Shown one piece after another: positions 7,403 to 19,854 of a DNA stretch of 64,000 bases (positions are counted from its first letter, which is position 1; the number at the start of each line of letters is the position of its first letter). The position numbers and the translations under genes were made by a program. The notes beneath the pieces were generated by a model, which had not been told where the DNA came from, made no database searches, and worked only from the letters and a program-made list of their open reading frames with translations. The DNA comes from Escherichia phage ECML-117. The DNA lies in the sequence record JX128258; one strand, written 5' to 3'.

Positions 7403-9760
7403 TTATTTTGCTGCTTTCAGCGCGGCTATTTCTGCCTTTAGTTCATCTATCTGATCCATCAATGCAAGAATTGCCTCGTGATGGAGTGCTGCTGCAACGC
7501 CAGAAGTGTTTACTGACTTTACGTCATCCAGAATTGACCCATCACGCAGGGTGACTGGTGATGATTTTGTTTCTGATACGGCTTCAGGGAAGTCTTTCTC
7601 TACGTCCTGCGCGATGAATCCGTATCCGATTGAGCCATTTGTCTCCAGGACCCATGTGACCCCTTTGATGTTTCTCATCTTGGAGAGCGGATTACTGATG
7701 CGCTCAATGTTGCTTTTAATTCTTTCGTCAGATGTGCTTCGCCATTCCTGGCATCTTGCTATGCCGTCAGCACCAAATAGATAAGAGGCACTGCTGCCAA
7801 TGCCATTCAAAATGTTAAGTTGCGCACGGTCCAATGCTGTTGTGCCACTTCTGACTCCGCCAAGCATCCAATTCCCGTCATACCAGTCGCCGCCAACGGA
7901 GTTTATATAGCCTCCTTCTGGCACATTCGCGTAGTTGATCATCCTGATGGCATTTCTTTCTGAAGCTGCCACCCCGACTGAATTCAACGGTTGTGCAACG
8001 ACATCCTTGGGCCTTACGTATGCGTCAATGTGTAATGCGCCGTCAGGCCTTAGTGTGCCAATTTGAGTCTCTGCGCTTGGGAAGTACAAAGTCCCAGCTT
8101 GGTTGAATGACCATTCTTGCACCCCATTAGATATCACCGCACCTTGTTCAGATGTTAATCCATCAATTTTTCCGTATGCCTGCAAGAATGCTTGATACGC
8201 AACGTTCGTGCCAATCTTATATTCAGATTTTACACTACCGCCTCTGACAAGCGTTCCGGCTGCAGGTTTTACTGCGTCGCCGTTAATCACACTCCAAGAA
8301 GTATTCGCGGCAACAAATCCACCCGATGCACGAATCACCCAAACGCCAACAAAGTTGCGACCCATGATTTCGTCAGTTGCCGCTCCATAAATCGGGCTTG
8401 ATCTGGATGCATCAATATTTATTGTATTGAGACGCCCCTCCACTGCCCCGCTTCCAACAGGTATGGTGTCGCCGCCGCCTTGGGGGTACAAATCGTTGTT
8501 TGTGTAAAAAGCACCTCGGACGGCTGTGCCAAAGATTTGCGCATAAGTGCCTGCCGATACACCAGCAGCTGAGCCTGTGATGTTTGGTGCAGCAGATTCA
8601 AATATTTGACCGTTCGCAGTGGAGTTGCCGCCATCACCGCGCCCGTAAAGCGCCCGTACAGAGCCTGTCTGGACACCGTTAAGGTCTGGGACACGGAATG
8701 TCGTTGTGCCGTTACCTGAAGAATATTTTGCACGTTTGAACTTATCCGCAAGCCAGTCGGCATCTGCGATGGGTGAAAGCATCTGCGCATACGCCCAAAG
8801 TTCAGGCCAGTCAGCACGGTTTAGCAATTGCCCGTCTGCAACGACTTCGTATGGCTGAATATATGATCTACTATTGCGAAGATGGAAATCGCCAACACCA
8901 TAGTTCATGACACCGTTCATACTTGGGCCAACGGTGCCTGTGTTTACTAAGTTTTCAACCCAACGCTTAGTCGCGGCATCATAATCATTTACAGGGTCGC
9001 CAGCGAGCGGCGTTGATCCTTGTGGACGGATGTTTAGCCACGCCTGAGCATTATCTGCAGAGCCTGTGCCGCCCATTGAAGTTGGAACGATGCTCTGATC
9101 AGCAACAGGGCCGAATCCGAAAGCAGTCTTCATTCCTTGAATGGTGGTCTGCCCAGTTCCGCCATTTGCAATTGGAATCGTGCTTTGCGTACTATACATT
9201 TGCACCCAATCCGACCAGGATGATGAGCCAGCATTGTATAGCCTTTGGTATATGGCGTTGATCCAATAAGGCGTATATCTTTGGACGCAGCTTTCTCCTG
9301 CGACGCCAGTATTGTAAACTTCAAGAATACCAGCTTGTGAGACTGGATAGTTCAGCGCCGATGATGCACCAGCATTTGCTGATTGATGATATTGACCAAA
9401 CCATGAACCAGTCAAGGCATTGAGATTTATTCCGTTAGGAATCTCTCCAAAGTTTCGGACAGTACCCGTCAAAGTTGCGGCAGTGGTTCGAATAGAAAGC
9501 ATGTCGCCAGCCGCCCATGCACGCGCTGCAGTCCCTTCTTGTGCACGCTGCACGGTCAGGACGTTTCCAACAACGGCTGTTACTGTGACGATTTCGAATT
9601 GGAGGCCTGTTGCAGCGTCGACGATTGTCGCCACTACACGCTCGTTTGCGCCCAAGGTCGGAAAGCCCGACCCTGAGCGAATTGTGATTGTGGTGTCTGA
9701 AGTCGTCGTTGGTTGAGCCAGCGCGACCTCAAAGTTGTTTTTGAATATTAGCCTTGGCAT
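7403..9760 (-). CDS. tail fibre/tailspike protein with C-terminal intramolecular chaperone (peptidase S74-like) domain
   Basis: 785 aa; fibre-type motifs (IPIANGGTGQTT; collar-like FRVPDLNGV); C-terminus STSDERIKSNIERIS...GVTWV matches the SDxRxK auto-cleaving chaperone signature. Confidence 0.75.
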   Translation of the reverse strand: MPRLIFKNNFEVALAQPTTTSDTTITIRSGSGFPTLGANERVVATIVDAATGLQFEIVTVTAVVGNVLTVQRAQEGTAARAWAAGDMLSIRTTAATLTGTVRNFGEIPNGINLNALTGSWFGQYHQSANAGASSALNYPVSQAGILEVYNTGVAGESCVQRYTPYWINAIYQRLYNAGSSSWSDWVQMYSTQSTIPIANGGTGQTTIQGMKTAFGFGPVADQSIVPTSMGGTGSADNAQAWLNIRPQGSTPLAGDPVNDYDAATKRWVENLVNTGTVGPSMNGVMNYGVGDFHLRNSRSYIQPYEVVADGQLLNRADWPELWAYAQMLSPIADADWLADKFKRAKYSSGNGTTTFRVPDLNGVQTGSVRALYGRGDGGNSTANGQIFESAAPNITGSAAGVSAGTYAQIFGTAVRGAFYTNNDLYPQGGGDTIPVGSGAVEGRLNTINIDASRSSPIYGAATDEIMGRNFVGVWVIRASGGFVAANTSWSVINGDAVKPAAGTLVRGGSVKSEYKIGTNVAYQAFLQAYGKIDGLTSEQGAVISNGVQEWSFNQAGTLYFPSAETQIGTLRPDGALHIDAYVRPKDVVAQPLNSVGVAASERNAIRMINYANVPEGGYINSVGGDWYDGNWMLGGVRSGTTALDRAQLNILNGIGSSASYLFGADGIARCQEWRSTSDERIKSNIERISNPLSKMRNIKGVTWVLETNGSIGYGFIAQDVEKDFPEAVSETKSSPVTLRDGSILDDVKSVNTSGVAAALHHEAILALMDQIDELKAEIAALKAAK

Positions 9761-12895: not shown

Positions 12896-13713
12896 CAATT
12901 AAAGCATTCCGTGCTGAAGGTCGAGTTTTCTTGCGGCAAACGACCTGGCACGGAATCGCTTACCCGCCCTTACTGCCTGTCGAATCTTCTTTTGCAAACA
13001 CTTACGATCAAAATCGTTGCGGTCGACGGCTTCGAGTAAATCACGACGCAGAGCACCCAGTGTCGACTTTTCAGAGACTTCAACGCCCAGCGCCGCTGCA
13101 ACGTCTTTCAAAACATCGAGTTCGGTTAAAGTTCTCATTTGATAATCCCCTTGATGTCTGATTCTGCCATAAAGATTGGAGTTCCGCCGCCAGGAACAAT
13201 CGAGCGCGTGACTTTATCAAACATATCGTTTTCTTCAACTTGAATACGATAGAATTTATTTTTGGATGAAGATGGGCACAATCCCATAAATTTGCCGATT
13301 CCGCGAACGCATTCATCTTCAAAGTATACTGTTTCACCTTGGATGGAGTCGATGTCGTCTACTGGATAGACCTTGCGACCCAATAGCCACTCGTCCATAG
13401 TCGCCTGCAAGACGTTTCGCGCATCTAAAATCCACGGGTCAATAGTAGCACCTTCGTATCGCGCAGCAGTGGCCTTTGCCAGTTCTTCATATTCGCATAC
13501 GTTAACGACTTCGCCGTTGTGCAAGACGACAAATACAATTGTTGTGCTCATTTCAATCTCCTTTCGTTTGGTTAACTAAAATATAACTCAAAATGATGCA
13601 AAAGCAAAATATTTTATGAACTATTTATGATCACCATACATATCATTTGCTTACAAACACATGAATATTTATAATATAGATTGATTCCCTTTCACTGTCA
13701 GGTGGCGTTAACA

Positions 13714-16089
13714 ATGAAAATTCTTGGCATAAAACTCTGGGAGAAGACGCAACCAGAAGCCGAACCAGCGGAGATGCCGCCAGGCGACCCATTGGCACCG
13801 TTTGAACGCCTTGAAAGGCGCGGCAGCGGTCAACGCTGGGAAAAGACTGAAAGCAATCGACCTACCTTTAAGACGGTTGATGACTTCCCTTTGTATGAGC
13901 CTGATATTAATGGCGACGGTGTTGCTATCATAAAAGGTCGTTCAGTCGATTCCGCAACAGTATCCAAAAAAGTTATGGATAATGCCTTGAAGAACATCAG
14001 TTCAGAAGGGCAGGTCAACCCATACACAGTACCTATTCAACTTCAAAACTGGTATTTGTCACAGTCATTCATCGGCTATCAAGCTTGCGCAATCATCGCG
14101 CAGCACTGGCTGGTGAACAAAGCGTGTTCCATGGTAGGCCGCGATGCAGTCCGTAAAGGCTGGGAAGTCAAATCCAGTTCTGAGTCCGAATTATCAGTGC
14201 AGGCCAGCGAACGCCTAAAGCAAATTGATAAAGAATTTAATATCAAAGAGCACTTAGTTGAAGCCGAACGATTCAAAAATATTTTTGGTATCCGCGTCAT
14301 CATATTTGATGTGCGTAGCGATGACCCAGAATACTACAGTAAACCTTTTAACATTGATGGTGTGACAAAGGGGTCTTATAAGGGAATCATTCAGGTTGAC
14401 CCTTATTGGATGATGCCGTTTCTGACGTCTGAAAACACAGCAGACCCTGCATCACAGCACTTCTATGACCCAGAATATTGGGTAATCAGCGGACAACGTT
14501 ATCATCGCAGCCACCTCATAATCTTGCGCAACGATGAGCCAGCTGATATTCTCAAGCCGACTTATATTTACGGCGGCATTCCTCTGACTCAGCAGATTTA
14601 TGAACGCATCTATGCCGCTGAACGTACCGCCAACGAAGCGCCATTGCTGGCGATGTCCAAGCGTACAACGACGCTGCGGACCGACGTTGACAAGGCTATT
14701 GCCAATGAGCGGTCTTTTGCAGAACGTCTGATGATGTGGATCAAGTACCGCGACAACTATGCAGTCAAAGTGCTTGGCCAAAAAGAAGAGATGGACCAGT
14801 TTGACATCAACTTGTCAGACTTCGACAGCATCATCATGAACCAGTACCAGCTTGTGGCCGCAATCGCAAAAGTTCCGTCGACCAAACTGCTTGGGACTTC
14901 GCCAAAAGGCTTTAACGCCACTGGTGAATTCGAGATGGTCAGCTATCACGAAGAGTTGGAAACGTGCCAGCAGCATGACCTGACAAAAATTCTCGACCGC
15001 CATTACAAAATCCTTCTCAAATCAGAAGGGGTGGATGTCGATGTTAAGGTTGCATGGGAACCAGTTGGCTCACTTACTGCTACTCAACTTGCAGAAATCA
15101 ATGATAAGCGAGCCAACACTGGCAAAACTCTTATTGATGCTGGCGTCATTTCTCCTGATGAAGAGCGCGACCGCATCAAAGACGACAAAAACAGCGGCTA
15201 CAACCGTCTGCCGGAAGACGCAGCAGAAGAAACCCCAGGGATGTCTCCAGAGAATATGGCATTGCTTGGCAAGTCTGCTGGTGAAGTCCTGCAAGGTAAG
15301 GCCGATATTGAACAGGCGAAGGCTGATGTCGTTAAGATGGGCGGCCAGTTCTATAGCGAAACAGGTATTATGCCAGAGGGTGCCGCGCGTGGTGAGTTGG
15401 CGGAAAACCCTGACAAAGCGCCTGTCGAAATCAACATGGACGACACCGATGATGAATCAAGCCATCAGGTTGATGTCCTAACGCAGTTGAAAGAAGGGCT
15501 GGAGGGCATTGCGGATTACTACCTGAAAGAAGGTCAGGATGTGGATTTTGACCCTCAAAAAGATTCACGGTCGGTGCAACCGTCTACCCTTCCAAGCGTT
15601 AAAGGACACGTCGTCAACTTACGCCACAACGTGGGTAAAATGGACGCAGCATCATTACCTAAGATGAAGTTGCACGGAATGATTCTTGGCATTGAGAATC
15701 CGCGAAACAGCATTCGTAGAGGAAACAGCCTTGACGGTGAATGGGCCGTGAAGATGCCGCACCACTACGGATTCATCAAGGGCACCAAGGGCGCAGACGG
15801 TGATGAAGTCGACTGCTTTGTGGGTCCAAATCTGAAGTCGCCGAAAGTCTTTATCGTGAACCAAAACGATAACTACTCTGGCGAGTTTGATGAACACAAG
15901 TGTATGCTTGGATTCGATTCAGCAGAAGAAGCGAAAGAAGCTTATCAAGCATCATTTGGTAACGGTTGGAACGGATTCGACTCAATCCACGAATTAGATG
16001 TGAACTCATTCAAGGAGTGGTTGAAGGGTGATTGCTCTCAAGCATACGGAGCACTCAATAATCCTACTAATTCACCGAAGCAAGGTTGA
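13714..16089 (+). CDS. portal protein with long C-terminal extension
   Basis: 791 aa directly downstream of terminase; ATG 13714 with GGTGG RBS; C-terminal ~250 aa form an acidic linker plus an extra domain. Confidence 0.55.
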   Translation: MKILGIKLWEKTQPEAEPAEMPPGDPLAPFERLERRGSGQRWEKTESNRPTFKTVDDFPLYEPDINGDGVAIIKGRSVDSATVSKKVMDNALKNISSEGQVNPYTVPIQLQNWYLSQSFIGYQACAIIAQHWLVNKACSMVGRDAVRKGWEVKSSSESELSVQASERLKQIDKEFNIKEHLVEAERFKNIFGIRVIIFDVRSDDPEYYSKPFNIDGVTKGSYKGIIQVDPYWMMPFLTSENTADPASQHFYDPEYWVISGQRYHRSHLIILRNDEPADILKPTYIYGGIPLTQQIYERIYAAERTANEAPLLAMSKRTTTLRTDVDKAIANERSFAERLMMWIKYRDNYAVKVLGQKEEMDQFDINLSDFDSIIMNQYQLVAAIAKVPSTKLLGTSPKGFNATGEFEMVSYHEELETCQQHDLTKILDRHYKILLKSEGVDVDVKVAWEPVGSLTATQLAEINDKRANTGKTLIDAGVISPDEERDRIKDDKNSGYNRLPEDAAEETPGMSPENMALLGKSAGEVLQGKADIEQAKADVVKMGGQFYSETGIMPEGAARGELAENPDKAPVEINMDDTDDESSHQVDVLTQLKEGLEGIADYYLKEGQDVDFDPQKDSRSVQPSTLPSVKGHVVNLRHNVGKMDAASLPKMKLHGMILGIENPRNSIRRGNSLDGEWAVKMPHHYGFIKGTKGADGDEVDCFVGPNLKSPKVFIVNQNDNYSGEFDEHKCMLGFDSAEEAKEAYQASFGNGWNGFDSIHELDVNSFKEWLKGDCSQAYGALNNPTNSPKQG

Positions 16090-16090
16090 T

Positions 16091-16942
16091 ATGGCTTTTA
16101 AAGCTTCGAAAAAACGTGAACGCCGCTCACCCGATAGAATTGGGCGCGGCAGTCCGATAATCCCATCAAACGCTATTGCGATGGCCTACCGTCGTGAGAT
16201 GAAAGGTCTTTGCTATGCGATGATTGATGACTATCAGGCAGGAATTTCAGAGTGGCTTGAAAAGAAGCAGGTGCAGAAGTTCTTTGCGCAAGACTCTGCT
16301 GATTCAACATTCCAAACTCTTATGAAACGTCTGCAGCTGAAATGGGCAAAGGCGTTTGCTCGTGTTGGGTCGAAGATTGCCGCTGATTTTATCAAATCGG
16401 TTGAAAAGGGTGCTACTTCTGCTACATTCGCCAGCCTTAAGTCCGCAGGCATAGAAGCGCCAAAGGCCACATATAACAAATTCGTTGAGAACACTCTTAG
16501 AACAAGCGAGACGTTTAACACGACTCTAGTGACTAAGGTCGGCGAGGATATTCACAACAGAGTGTACGAAGCAGTCATGCTTTCGCTGACTTCGCCCGAC
16601 CCAGCCCAGCAAGGCACGTCAGGCATTCAGGCGGCGTTGCGAAACGTAAAACACTTCTCTGCAAAGAGAGTCGACTTAATCGCTAAAGACCAGACAAGCA
16701 AATTGTATTGCGTTCTAAGCGATGAAAGGATGCGCCAGAATGGAGTCGAAGAATTTGAGTGGGCGCACTCAGGAGCAGGAAAGGAGCCGCGAATCTCTCA
16801 TGAACACGTCGACGGAATGAGATTCAAACTTGATGACAAGCGCCTATGGGAAGTTGGCGGCGAATTGAAGTTCAAAAAGGGTGACATCGGTCCTCCTGGA
16901 TGGGCAATACACTGCAAGTGCAGAAAAATACCAATCATTTGA
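16091..16942 (+). CDS. head morphogenesis protein (MuF-like position)
   Basis: 283 aa, starts 2 nt after the portal stop; assignment by synteny and size only. Confidence 0.4.
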   Translation: MAFKASKKRERRSPDRIGRGSPIIPSNAIAMAYRREMKGLCYAMIDDYQAGISEWLEKKQVQKFFAQDSADSTFQTLMKRLQLKWAKAFARVGSKIAADFIKSVEKGATSATFASLKSAGIEAPKATYNKFVENTLRTSETFNTTLVTKVGEDIHNRVYEAVMLSLTSPDPAQQGTSGIQAALRNVKHFSAKRVDLIAKDQTSKLYCVLSDERMRQNGVEEFEWAHSGAGKEPRISHEHVDGMRFKLDDKRLWEVGGELKFKKGDIGPPGWAIHCKCRKIPII

Positions 16943-18435: not shown

Positions 18436-19854
18436 ATGCGAATGCAAACGGCACGCGAAATTGACAAAAATGGATTCTTGACGATTGTGGGTTGTCCCAT
18501 TTCGTCATTTGGCATTTTTGATTATTCTGCAGGTCAGGTTGGACTTGATGGTGATCCGAATCGCATCGTAAAAGTTTATCGCCCAGAGTCAGCGGTGAAA
18601 GACCCCGAAGCGATAGATTCATTCAAAAATATCCCTTTCATCGACAATCACGAAATGCTTTCTGGATTCGAAGGTGATGAGGATAACACAGCACCCGAAG
18701 AGTATGGCGTTGATGGCGTTCTAACTGGCAATGTTTATTATGACAAGCCATGGATGCGCGGCGACCTTAAAGTTTTTAGCCGTCGTCTGAAGAAGGCCAT
18801 CGACTCTGGAAAGGTTGACTTGTCTTTGGGCTATGACTGTGAATTCATCATACAGTCTGGAGAGTTTGACGGGCAGCCGTATGAAGTGGTACAGACAACT
18901 CTTCGCGGCAACCACATTGCTCTCGTGGACGTTGGTCGAGTACCAGGTGCACGGGTGCTGGATGGTCGTTGCTTTGACCATCTTTGTTTGACGACTGTAA
19001 CACCATCCAACGAGGATTTAGACATGCCAAAACCGTTAAAAGGTAAAGCGCGTGATAATGCTGTTGAACAGCTGAAATCACTGATCCCTGCGCTCGAACA
19101 ATTTCTGAATGAAGAGAGCACCGAAGCTGCTCATCAGGACGAAGTTGAAGTGAAAGCAGAAGAGAAGGATTCAACCGAAGAACGTGAAGAAGTGATGGTT
19201 GATCCAGAAGTCAAAGCAGAAGCTGAAGAGACTCCAGAAGGTGAAGAGAAGTTTGAATTTGAAACTGAATCTCACGCTGGCGGCGAGCTTCCGCAACTGA
19301 TCAGCCAAATCGAAGCACTTATTGCAAAACTGAAAGGTGGCGCGGTAGGTGATGAAGAAGAAGTTGAAGCCGAAGTCAAAGACGAAGAAGTTGAAGTCAA
19401 GGCTGAAGATGTATCACCTTGCGACAAAGCTGAAGATGTGGTTAGCGGCCTGCAAAACAGCAACGTAAAGGGGGCTTCGGTCGAAAAAGATGACAAACCG
19501 ACAAAAGCGGCGAAAGCGTCGCCAGGTCCAGCAAAAGGGGAACACTCAATGGCATCTGATTCAGCAGTTGCTGCTTTCTACGCTGATTCTGCTCGTAAGA
19601 ATAGCCTCTACCAGCGCCTGTCTAAAGTTGTTGGTGCCTTTGATCATGCAACTATGGACTCCAAGTCCGTAGCGAAATATGGCGCTAAAAAGTTAGGCTT
19701 GAAGTGCGTTGATGGTGCTGAGTTTGACGTGGTGGATAATTATCTGCGCGGCGTTGAACACGGTCAAAAACAGCGTGTAGTCGCAAAACAAAAGGCCGCT
19801 GCGGATTCTGCAGCAACTGACGAAGCGTTTGAAGCTTGGTTGAAAGGGGAATAA
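18436..19854 (+). CDS. prohead protease/scaffold-like protein with acidic C-terminal region
   Basis: 472 aa; Glu-rich low-complexity C-terminal half typical of scaffolds; sits before the major capsid gene. Confidence 0.45.
   Translation: MRMQTAREIDKNGFLTIVGCPISSFGIFDYSAGQVGLDGDPNRIVKVYRPESAVKDPEAIDSFKNIPFIDNHEMLSGFEGDEDNTAPEEYGVDGVLTGNVYYDKPWMRGDLKVFSRRLKKAIDSGKVDLSLGYDCEFIIQSGEFDGQPYEVVQTTLRGNHIALVDVGRVPGARVLDGRCFDHLCLTTVTPSNEDLDMPKPLKGKARDNAVEQLKSLIPALEQFLNEESTEAAHQDEVEVKAEEKDSTEEREEVMVDPEVKAEAEETPEGEEKFEFETESHAGGELPQLISQIEALIAKLKGGAVGDEEEVEAEVKDEEVEVKAEDVSPCDKAEDVVSGLQNSNVKGASVEKDDKPTKAAKASPGPAKGEHSMASDSAVAAFYADSARKNSLYQRLSKVVGAFDHATMDSKSVAKYGAKKLGLKCVDGAEFDVVDNYLRGVEHGQKQRVVAKQKAAADSAATDEAFEAWLKGE

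What the first reader, a model, noticed from the sequence alone, without database searches (positions are those of the whole stretch)
13714..16089. Portal protein carries a 250-aa C-terminal extension
At 791 aa this is far longer than typical portals. After the expected portal core, an acidic linker is followed by an additional domain (…MPHHYGFIKGTKGADGDEVDCFVGPN…GEFDEHKCMLGF…). Extra domains fused to portal or head-morphogenesis proteins are often ejected effectors or enzymes.
Basis: partly seen in the sequence, partly recalled or inferred. Interest (0 to 1): 0.45.

Follow-up and report, generated by a model that had tools for sequence, protein, structure and literature searches.

The report
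Phage portal with fused pyrophosphatase-like domain
The portal protein of this E. coli phage (a Wifcevirus) does carry an extra folded C-terminal domain, a pyrophosphatase-like "InPase" enzyme module packaged in the virion, but the fusion is already catalogued and shared by hundreds of related phages, and only its function remains untested.

Summary

The window is a Wifcevirus, 99.5% identical to phage TH35 over this gene. The same architecture is a PHROG family (phrog_4660) and occurs in Pbunavirus portals. In the cryo-EM structures E217 (8FVH) and Pa193 (9B41), this C-terminal region gave no density. Iyer et al. 2017 described portal-InPase fusions explicitly.

The extension is not part of the portal core. 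Of the 120 nearest core homologs, 21 carry InPase, 4 carry the anti-CBASS enzyme Acb1 at the same site, and most carry nothing. Published LC-MS/MS of CsCl-purified virions of two Wifceviruses contains peptides covering 89% of the linker and 54% of the InPase domain, so it is a virion component. The conserved acidic and basic residues are intact, and dN/dS is 0.016.

Not shown: whether it is cleaved from the portal, whether it is ejected, and what it hydrolyses.

Verdict: real and correctly read, but already known. Interest is moderate to low.

The parts
13700..13705 (+). Shine-Dalgarno AGGTGG, 8 nt upstream of the ATG
13714..16089 (+). Portal-InPase fusion gene (791 aa plus stop)
   Evidence: phrog_4660 covers aa 16-777 end to end.
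13714..14031 (+). N-terminal region, aa 1-106. Poorly conserved and not resolved in the homolog cryo-EM structures.
   Evidence: Peptides for aa 12-32 and 45-53 were seen in Wifcevirus virions.
14032..15327 (+). Portal core, aa 107-538 (wing, stem, clip, crown and C-terminal helical barrel). Pfam PF06381 matches aa 122-468.
   Evidence: (8FVH and 9B41, E 1e-190 and 6e-251)
15328..15642 (+). Acidic, mostly disordered linker, aa 539-643. Hypervariable between genera.
   Evidence: Coverage is 89% in virion LC-MS/MS.
15457..15519 (+). Confident amphipathic helix within the linker, aa 582-602. Comparable helices occur in portal tails that lack InPase.
15571..15606 (+). SVQPSTLPSVKG, a V-x-P-[ST]-V-x-G motif at aa 620-631. 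It recurs upstream of InPase and in InPase-less portal tails. Its role is unknown.
15643..16038 (+). InPase domain, aa 644-775 (Pfam PF18823 matches aa 649-771). Beta-barrel plus two helices.
15766..15813 (+). Core catalytic motif YGFIKGTKGADGDEVD, aa 685-700. Y685, D695, D697 and D700 align to E. coli PPase Y55, D65, D67 and D70.
15889..15900 (+). Invariant D726-E727-H-K729. Tentatively equivalent to the PPase D102/K104 region.
   Evidence: The mapping to PPase residues is an inference.
16091..16942 (+). Adjacent MuF-like minor head protein gene. Its start lies 2 nt after the portal stop codon.
18436..19854 (+). DUF2213 head-maturation protease / scaffold (homolog of Pa193 gp24). The only candidate for releasing the cargo.

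Best explanation
The gene encodes the portal protein of a Wifcevirus. Its C-terminal helical barrel continues into a flexible acidic tether of about 105 aa, followed by an InPase domain. InPase is a compact, divergent relative of family I inorganic pyrophosphatase that is characteristic of head-packaged phage 'polyvalent' effector proteins.

Shown here: (1) the domain is a member of the InPase family; (2) the family's invariant metal-binding and catalytic residues are all present; (3) the domain is under strong purifying selection; (4) in CsCl-purified virions of two near-identical phages, the linker and the domain are present.

Inferred from the portal geometry: up to twelve copies sit inside the capsid next to the portal axis. 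They would be invisible to symmetrised cryo-EM because the tether is flexible.

Inferred from family context only: the domain is an active Mg2+/Mn2+-dependent pyrophosphohydrolase, acting on PPi or on a pyrophosphate-containing nucleotide. It is pre-loaded cargo that works at the very start of the next infection. That would require release from the portal ring, presumably by the DUF2213 prohead protease.

My rough confidences: domain identity about 0.95; virion location about 0.85; catalytically active about 0.7; released and delivered into the host about 0.4.
For: Domain identity and fold:
- Pfam InPase 157 bits against a cut-off of 26.8, and portal 296 bits.
- AF2 pLDDT above 90 for aa ~644-784.

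Active site and selection:
- Invariant or near-invariant E661, R668, Y685, D695, D697, D700, D726, E727 and K729 across 59 diverse homologs, all present here.
- The YGxI..DGDxxD block aligns to the PPase active site.
- dN/dS is 0.016 for the domain against 0.008 for the core.

Virion location:
- All 22 peptides from ECML-117 gp34 in CsCl-purified virions match this protein exactly. They cover all 7 theoretical tryptic peptides of the linker and 5 of 7 in the InPase domain.

Cargo context:
- InPase occurs in DarB-like, DarA-like, ART-PolyVal and internal-head-protein architectures.
- Sister portals carry Acb1 at the same site.
- Some portals are portal-InPase-ADP-ribosyltransferase or portal-InPase-topoisomerase IB.
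- Iyer et al. 2017 made the same prediction.
- A head maturation protease is encoded 2.3 kb downstream.
Against: - No enzymatic data exist for any InPase-family member, as far as my literature searches could find.
- Several PPase phosphate-binding residues (E31, R43, Y51, K142) have no identifiable equivalent, and the match to PF00719 is below its cut-off.
- There is no evidence of cleavage. Every observed peptide is fully tryptic, the linker is covered continuously, and the one apparently semi-tryptic peptide turned out to be tryptic in that phage.
- A portal-tethered domain cannot reach the host. About 105 aa of extended chain is roughly 370 A, against a tail of about 1300-1500 A.
- Some stand-alone InPase genes lie in non-virion, biosynthetic contexts.
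Confidence: 0.5

Rival explanations
1. The domain stays covalently attached to the portal ring for the whole life of the virion and acts inside the head. It might serve as an internal plug, as a sensor that helps organise or retain the DNA end, or as an assembly or docking module. Catalysis in the host cell would be irrelevant.
For: - The linker is covered continuously by tryptic peptides and no cleavage product has been documented.
- The E217 barrel, which precedes the tether, folds only when DNA is present.
- The tail helix and the VxP[ST]V motif are conserved even in portals without InPase, so the tail has a role of its own.
Against: - The residues that are invariant across thousands of homologs are the metal ligands and general base of a phosphohydrolase, not a surface patch.
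- Most closely related portals function without the domain.
- The same site carries unrelated enzymes (Acb1, ART, topoisomerase IB) in sister portals.
Confidence: 0.2
2. The enzyme works in the producing cell late in infection, for example by removing PPi to pull DNA replication or nucleotidyl-transfer reactions forward. On this reading, fusion to the portal only provides co-expression, and packaging is incidental.
For: - One stand-alone InPase lies inside a QueC / Asn-synthase / radical-SAM / nucleotide-sugar cluster, whose reactions release PPi.
- Iyer et al. list PPi clearance as one option.
- Wifceviruses are reported to replicate unusually fast.
Against: - Portal proteins are made late, and I would expect them to be low-abundance (12 copies per virion), so this is a poor vehicle for a metabolic enzyme. 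The host already has an essential PPase (general knowledge).
- The family is overwhelmingly found in virion-packaged multidomain proteins.
Confidence: 0.15
3. The domain is a decaying, non-functional remnant of an old fusion.
For: It is absent from many sister portals, so it is dispensable for portal function.
Against: - dN/dS is 0.016, with 35.5 synonymous against 3.5 non-synonymous differences.
- All family-invariant residues are retained.
- The domain is 57% identical between Wifcevirus and Pbunavirus, whose cores are 62% identical.
Confidence: 0.02

Closest known systems
InPase domain of phage polyvalent proteins (Pfam PF18823; Iyer, Burroughs, Anand, de Souza & Aravind 2017, PMC5512222)
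   Same: Clear sequence membership (E 3e-46). Same conserved acidic residues. The paper explicitly cites a portal-InPase fusion (BcepF1.124) and proposes packaging and injection.
   Different: Nothing essential. This is the Escherichia (Wifcevirus) representative. This analysis adds the link to virion LC-MS/MS data and the cargo-swap comparison.
Pbunavirus portal gp19 (E217, PDB 8FVH; Pa193, PDB 9B41)
   Same: Same three-part architecture. The alignment to 9B41 runs from residue 14 to 779 (E 6e-251). The core is about 62% identical and InPase about 57%. The C-terminal 237 residues are unresolved in both cryo-EM maps.
   Different: The linker sequence and length differ. In Pa193 the first 93 residues were not seen by LC-MS, whereas Wifcevirus virions yield peptides from aa 12-53.
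Family I soluble inorganic pyrophosphatase (PF00719; e.g. E. coli Ppa)
   Different: Below the PF00719 cut-off (18-21 bits against 23.5). It is about 11 residues shorter between strand 1 and the YG motif, which matches the missing hairpin described by Iyer et al. No recognisable E31, R43, Y51 or K142. It is tethered to a portal rather than forming a free hexamer. No activity has been tested.
Portal-Acb1 fusions and T4 Acb1 (anti-CBASS 2H phosphodiesterase, PF23474)
   Same: Sister portals with 50-54% core identity carry this nucleotide-signal-degrading enzyme at exactly the same C-terminal position, after an acidic linker.
   Different: Unrelated fold and chemistry. The Acb1 fusions lack the helix and the VxPSV element of the tail.
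Head-protein-effector fusions and packaged effectors (MuF-toxin fusions, T4 Alt, P1 DarA/DarB)
   Same: The same logic of loading an enzyme into the capsid by attaching it to a head component. InPase itself occurs within DarA-like, DarB-like and ART-containing proteins.
   Different: For T4 Alt and the P1 Dar proteins, packaging and delivery have been shown experimentally (established knowledge; the MuF-toxin fusions are predicted). For the portal fusion, neither release nor ejection has been shown.

Membership tests
Phage_portal_3 (PF06381) portal protein | Profile match above the curated cut-off | tested here: met
   296 bits against 33.8, aa 122-468
Phage_portal_3 (PF06381) portal protein | Homology to a protein seen experimentally as the dodecameric portal at the unique vertex | tested here: met
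   8FVH and 9B41, E 1e-190 and 6e-251; descriptions
Phage_portal_3 (PF06381) portal protein | Position in the head module next to the large terminase, MuF, protease/scaffold and capsid genes | tested here: met
InPase (PF18823) | Profile match above the curated cut-off | tested here: met
   157-161 bits against 26.8
InPase (PF18823) | Conserved acidic residues for two-metal catalysis | tested here: met
   E661, D695, D697, D700, D726 and E727 are invariant or near-invariant in 59 homologs and present here
InPase (PF18823) | Lacks the beta-hairpin insert of classical family I PPases | tested here: inconclusive
   The segment between the IEN strand and YGF is 23 aa here against 34 aa in E. coli Ppa. 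Model coordinates could not be superposed.
InPase (PF18823) | Phosphohydrolase activity | not testable with these tools
   No biochemical study was found
Family I inorganic pyrophosphatase (PF00719) | Profile match above the curated cut-off | tested here: not met
   18-21 bits against 23.5; only 25 residues matched
Family I inorganic pyrophosphatase (PF00719) | Same fold | tested here: met
Family I inorganic pyrophosphatase (PF00719) | Full set of PPi-binding residues (K29, R43, Y55, K104, Y141, K142) | tested here: inconclusive
   Y55 is clearly matched, and the K29, K104 and Y141 equivalents are probable. R43 and K142 were not identified, and position 745 is not conserved.
Capsid-packaged ejected effector | Present in purified virions | tested here: met
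   Published peptide lists from CsCl-purified vB_Eco4M-7 and ECML-117, mapped here
Capsid-packaged ejected effector | Released from the structural carrier (proteolytic processing) | tested here: inconclusive
   Only tryptic peptides are reported and the linker is fully covered. The candidate semi-tryptic peptide was rejected.
Capsid-packaged ejected effector | Delivered into the host cell with the DNA | not testable with these tools
   Needs an ejection or infection experiment

The most novel reading that the evidence does not exclude
The C-terminal tail of this portal family is an interchangeable cargo dock. It pre-loads the capsid with counter-defence enzymes that attack nucleotides: InPase in Wifcevirus and Pbunavirus, Acb1 in a sister clade, and InPase plus ADP-ribosyltransferase or topoisomerase IB in others. 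On this reading InPase is not a housekeeping PPase. It would be released from the portal and injected to destroy a pyrophosphate-containing immune signal or alarmone, or to clear PPi at the point of DNA entry, within the first seconds of infection. That would make it an uncharacterised class of anti-defence enzyme present in the Pbunaviruses used for phage therapy.
Probability: 0.2. Interest if true: 0.65.

Novelty: already known. Interest (0 to 1): 0.3.

Why it matters
The fusion occurs in several hundred sequenced phages, including the Pbunaviruses (PB1, E217, Pa193) used therapeutically against Pseudomonas aeruginosa. Two high-resolution virion structures still leave these 237-253 residues unexplained. 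The InPase domain family is very large (more than 9,000 clusters at 50% identity), yet I found no biochemical characterisation of it. The practical gain here is modest. The analysis links existing virion proteomics to the unresolved density, shows that the domain is selected and catalytically intact, and shows that Acb1 and other effectors occupy the same site. Together these points give a concrete and inexpensive experimental programme. As a genome-scan finding, however, it is a correct re-discovery and not something new.

Tried and rejected
1. Semi-tryptic peptide as a cleavage mark. 'TGIMPEGAAR' from vB_Eco4M-7 would follow a Glu in the window sequence, but that phage has Lys at position 549, so the peptide is ordinary tryptic.
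2. Separate expression of the domain or of a short portal. No in-frame internal start before the domain has a credible Shine-Dalgarno, and no X XXY YYZ slippery heptamer lies between aa 470 and 660.
3. Full active-site mapping onto E. coli PPase by profile alignment. Only the E20/K29 region and the Y55-D70 block align reliably. The downstream alignment is low-confidence and was not used.
4. Pa193 LC-MS tables. The supplements are not held, so peptide coverage of the Pbunavirus C-terminus could not be checked.
5. Literature on experimental InPase function, portal-Acb1 fusions or the portal band size in PB1-like phages. Nothing relevant was found.
6. Gene context of stand-alone InPase genes as a functional clue. 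The contexts are mixed (near baseplate genes, in a structural module, in a biosynthetic cluster), so this does not decide the question.
7. The VxPSVxG motif as a cargo-specific processing site. It also occurs in tails without cargo and is absent from the Acb1 fusions, so it belongs to the portal tail, and its role is open.

Full report
**Observation.** The window holds an ORF at 13681..16089 on the + strand. The ATG at 13714 gives 791 aa and is preceded by AGGTGG with an 8-nt spacer. Relatives annotate the same 2376-nt gene. Pfam finds Phage_portal_3 (PF06381) at aa 122-468 (E 3e-88) and a second, independent hit, InPase (PF18823), at aa 649-771 (E 3e-46). When aa 630-791 are scanned alone the InPase hit is as strong (E 2e-47). 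The coordinates, the length, the acidic linker and the additional domain are all confirmed.

**Identity of the phage and of the protein.** The gene is 99.5% identical to Escherichia virus TH35 and 91-99% identical to 26 other Wifcevirus genomes (WFH, WFC, FEC19, ECML-117-like phages, BASEL Bas98-101). phrog_4660 ('minor head protein', profile length 765) matches aa 16-777 in one stretch, so the whole fusion is a catalogued phage protein family. The PDB holds two close homologs, the portal gp19 of Pseudomonas phages Pa193 (9B41, aligned over residues 14-779, E 6e-251) and E217 (8FVH). Both papers modelled gp19 only to residue 528 of 765 and state that residues 529-765 had no discernible density. 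The E217 paper describes the last modelled part as a C-terminal helical barrel that projects into the head. The extension therefore starts inside the capsid on the portal axis.

**Active site and selection.**
- Across 59 diverse InPase sequences, the invariant or near-invariant positions are G655, I660, E661, R668, G670, G675, W677, Y685, G686, D695, D697 (50 D, 8 E), D700, Q717, D726, E727, K729, A740 and Y744. This protein has all of them.
- Y685, D695, D697 and D700 align with E. coli PPase Y55, D65, D67 and D70, which are metal ligands and the general base. A permissive alignment adds E661=E20 and R668=K29.
- D726/E727/K729 probably correspond to the D102/K104 region, but that is my inference.
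- Equivalents of E31, R43, Y51 and K142 were not found. The leaving-group phosphate site therefore looks less basic than in true PPases, and the substrate is open.
- Against the Wifcevirus vB_Eco4M-7 (dS 0.5-1.0), dN/dS is 0.008 for the core, 0.02 for the linker and 0.016 for InPase (35.5 synonymous against 3.5 non-synonymous differences). The domain is maintained by selection.

**Is it part of the core of related portals?** No. A search with the core alone (aa 107-538) returned 2977 homologs at E <= 1e-10. Among the best 120 (50-66% identity):
- 21 carry PF06381 plus PF18823, with lengths of 671-756 aa;
- 4 carry PF06381 plus PF23474;
- 3 have an N-terminal PF18905;
- several have tails of 160-270 aa with no Pfam match;
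- most end within about 30 residues of the barrel.

In a rough neighbour-joining tree of the cores, the presence of InPase needs at least six changes. Among 22 full-length fusions, mean column conservation is 0.66 in the core, 0.57 in InPase and 0.21 in the linker, where occupancy is 0.61. PF23474 is Acb1, the anti-CBASS phosphodiesterase, and it sits at the same C-terminal position after a short acidic linker. An exhaustive HMMER scan with the InPase domain found 9,348 clusters (at 50% identity) at E <= 1e-10, many of them proteins of 1,000-6,400 aa. Examples include portal-InPase-ADP-ribosyltransferase, portal-InPase-topoisomerase IB, DarA_N-InPase-DarA_C and ART-PolyVal-InPase. PHROG and tblastn hits add DarB-like, internal-head-protein and ClpP-fusion contexts. 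The portal tail therefore behaves as a slot for exchangeable cargo.

**Is the extension in the virion?** Necel et al. 2020 (PMC7048862) analysed CsCl-purified particles of vB_Eco4M-7 and ECML-117 by LC-MS/MS and listed the portal at 88.7 kDa with 20-22 peptides. I mapped the complete ECML-117 peptide list onto the window protein. All 22 peptides match exactly. They cover 28% of the N-terminal region, 19% of the core (7 of 23 theoretical tryptic peptides), 89% of the linker (7 of 7), 54% of InPase (5 of 7) and 88% of the C-terminal tail. The tail peptide GDCSQAYGALNNPTNSPK spans aa 772-789. The vB_Eco4M-7 list contains the corresponding peptides. The extension is therefore a virion component, although the authors did not comment on it. 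All the peptides are fully tryptic, so they say nothing about processing. A candidate semi-tryptic peptide was explained by an E549K difference.

**Mechanism.**
- Shown: a portal with an InPase domain of intact catalytic signature, under selection and present in virions.
- Inferred from geometry: up to 12 copies inside the head near the portal axis, on tethers flexible enough to vanish in C12-averaged maps.
- Inferred from family context, and proposed earlier by Iyer et al. 2017: a metal-dependent pyrophosphohydrolase, acting on PPi or on a nucleotide with a pyrophosphate bond, that is carried into the next host.

The weak point is release. The portal ring stays in the capsid, and 105 residues of extended chain (about 370 A) cannot span a tail of about 1300-1500 A. 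Delivery therefore requires cleavage. A DUF2213 head-maturation protease / scaffold is encoded at 18436-19854, but no cleavage has been documented. The existence of portal-InPase-ART fusions argues that such tails act on host targets in at least some phages, because an Alt-like ADP-ribosyltransferase has no plausible substrate inside a capsid. That last step rests on general knowledge of T4 Alt.

The rival explanations are a permanently tethered internal structural or regulatory module, an enzyme that acts late in the producing cell, and a decaying relic. The relic reading is excluded by dN/dS. No internal start or frameshift signal suggests separate products.

**Comparison with what is known, and novelty.** Pfam PF18823, phrog_4660 and Iyer et al. 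2017 already define the domain. Iyer et al. name a portal fusion (BcepF1.124), note the missing hairpin, and propose injection and either nucleotide or PPi substrates. At least one GenBank record (Luteibacter phage Pluto) labels the whole gene 'inorganic pyrophosphatase'. Among isolated phages, 409 records share the core at E <= 1e-30 and 469 hold an InPase domain, about 300 of them Pbunaviruses. I found no experimental study of the domain. The finding is a correct reading of a known architecture. What is still open is the biochemistry and the fate of the domain during infection.

**Verdict.** Novelty: already known. Interest 0.3, because the open functional question is real and affects therapeutic phages, but nothing here would surprise a specialist.

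Noticed in passing
P0082, P0100, P0140, P0156 (metagenomic sister portals): Portals with 50-54% core identity carry an Acb1 anti-CBASS phosphodiesterase domain (PF23474) at the C-terminus, where this phage has InPase. The four form one clade in the rough core tree.
   Followed up: partly
P0182 and P0186: Three-part 'polyvalent portals': portal-InPase-ADP-ribosyltransferase (ADPrib_exo_Tox) and portal-InPase-topoisomerase IB.
   Followed up: partly
window 15457-15519 and 15571-15606; also the tails of P0063-65, P0113, P0138, P0150, P0166: An amphipathic helix followed by one or two V-x-P-[ST]-V motifs is conserved in the C-terminal tails of this portal family whether or not a cargo domain follows. 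It is absent from the Acb1 fusions. Its function is unknown; it could be a docking or processing element.
   Followed up: partly
window 12899-13138 and 13135-13551 (- strand): Two small reverse-strand ORFs (79 and 138 aa, no Pfam hit for the latter) interrupt the otherwise co-directional large terminase-portal pair. The same arrangement is annotated in vB_Eco4M-7 (gp34 and gp35).
   Followed up: no
window 18436-19854 (+): The DUF2213 protease/scaffold protein is one of the most abundantly detected proteins in CsCl-purified virions (852 PSMs in ECML-117). The peptides include some from the N-terminal protease-like domain, so much of the protein appears to stay in mature particles, as reported for Pa193 gp24.
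   Followed up: partly
phrog_30637: One PHROG profile of 1119 positions matches both this portal (aa 260-514 to profile positions 2-260) and the DUF2213 protease (to profile positions 776-899). This implies that some phages fuse portal and protease into one polypeptide.
   Followed up: no
L002 8001-8669: A stand-alone InPase gene lies inside a cluster of QueC, asparagine-synthase-like, radical-SAM, methyltransferase and nucleotide-sugar epimerase genes. This non-virion context is compatible with PPi removal during nucleotide or DNA-modification chemistry.
   Followed up: no
window 13747-13872 (aa 12-53): N-terminal peptides of the portal are detected in Wifcevirus virions, whereas the Pa193 study did not detect the first 93 residues by LC-MS. 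N-terminal processing may therefore differ between the two genera, or peptide detectability may differ.
   Followed up: no
window 7403-9760 (- strand): A 785-aa tail fibre with a C-terminal Peptidase_S74 intramolecular chaperone domain. It corresponds to the abundantly detected PI34_24 in virion LC-MS/MS.
   Followed up: no
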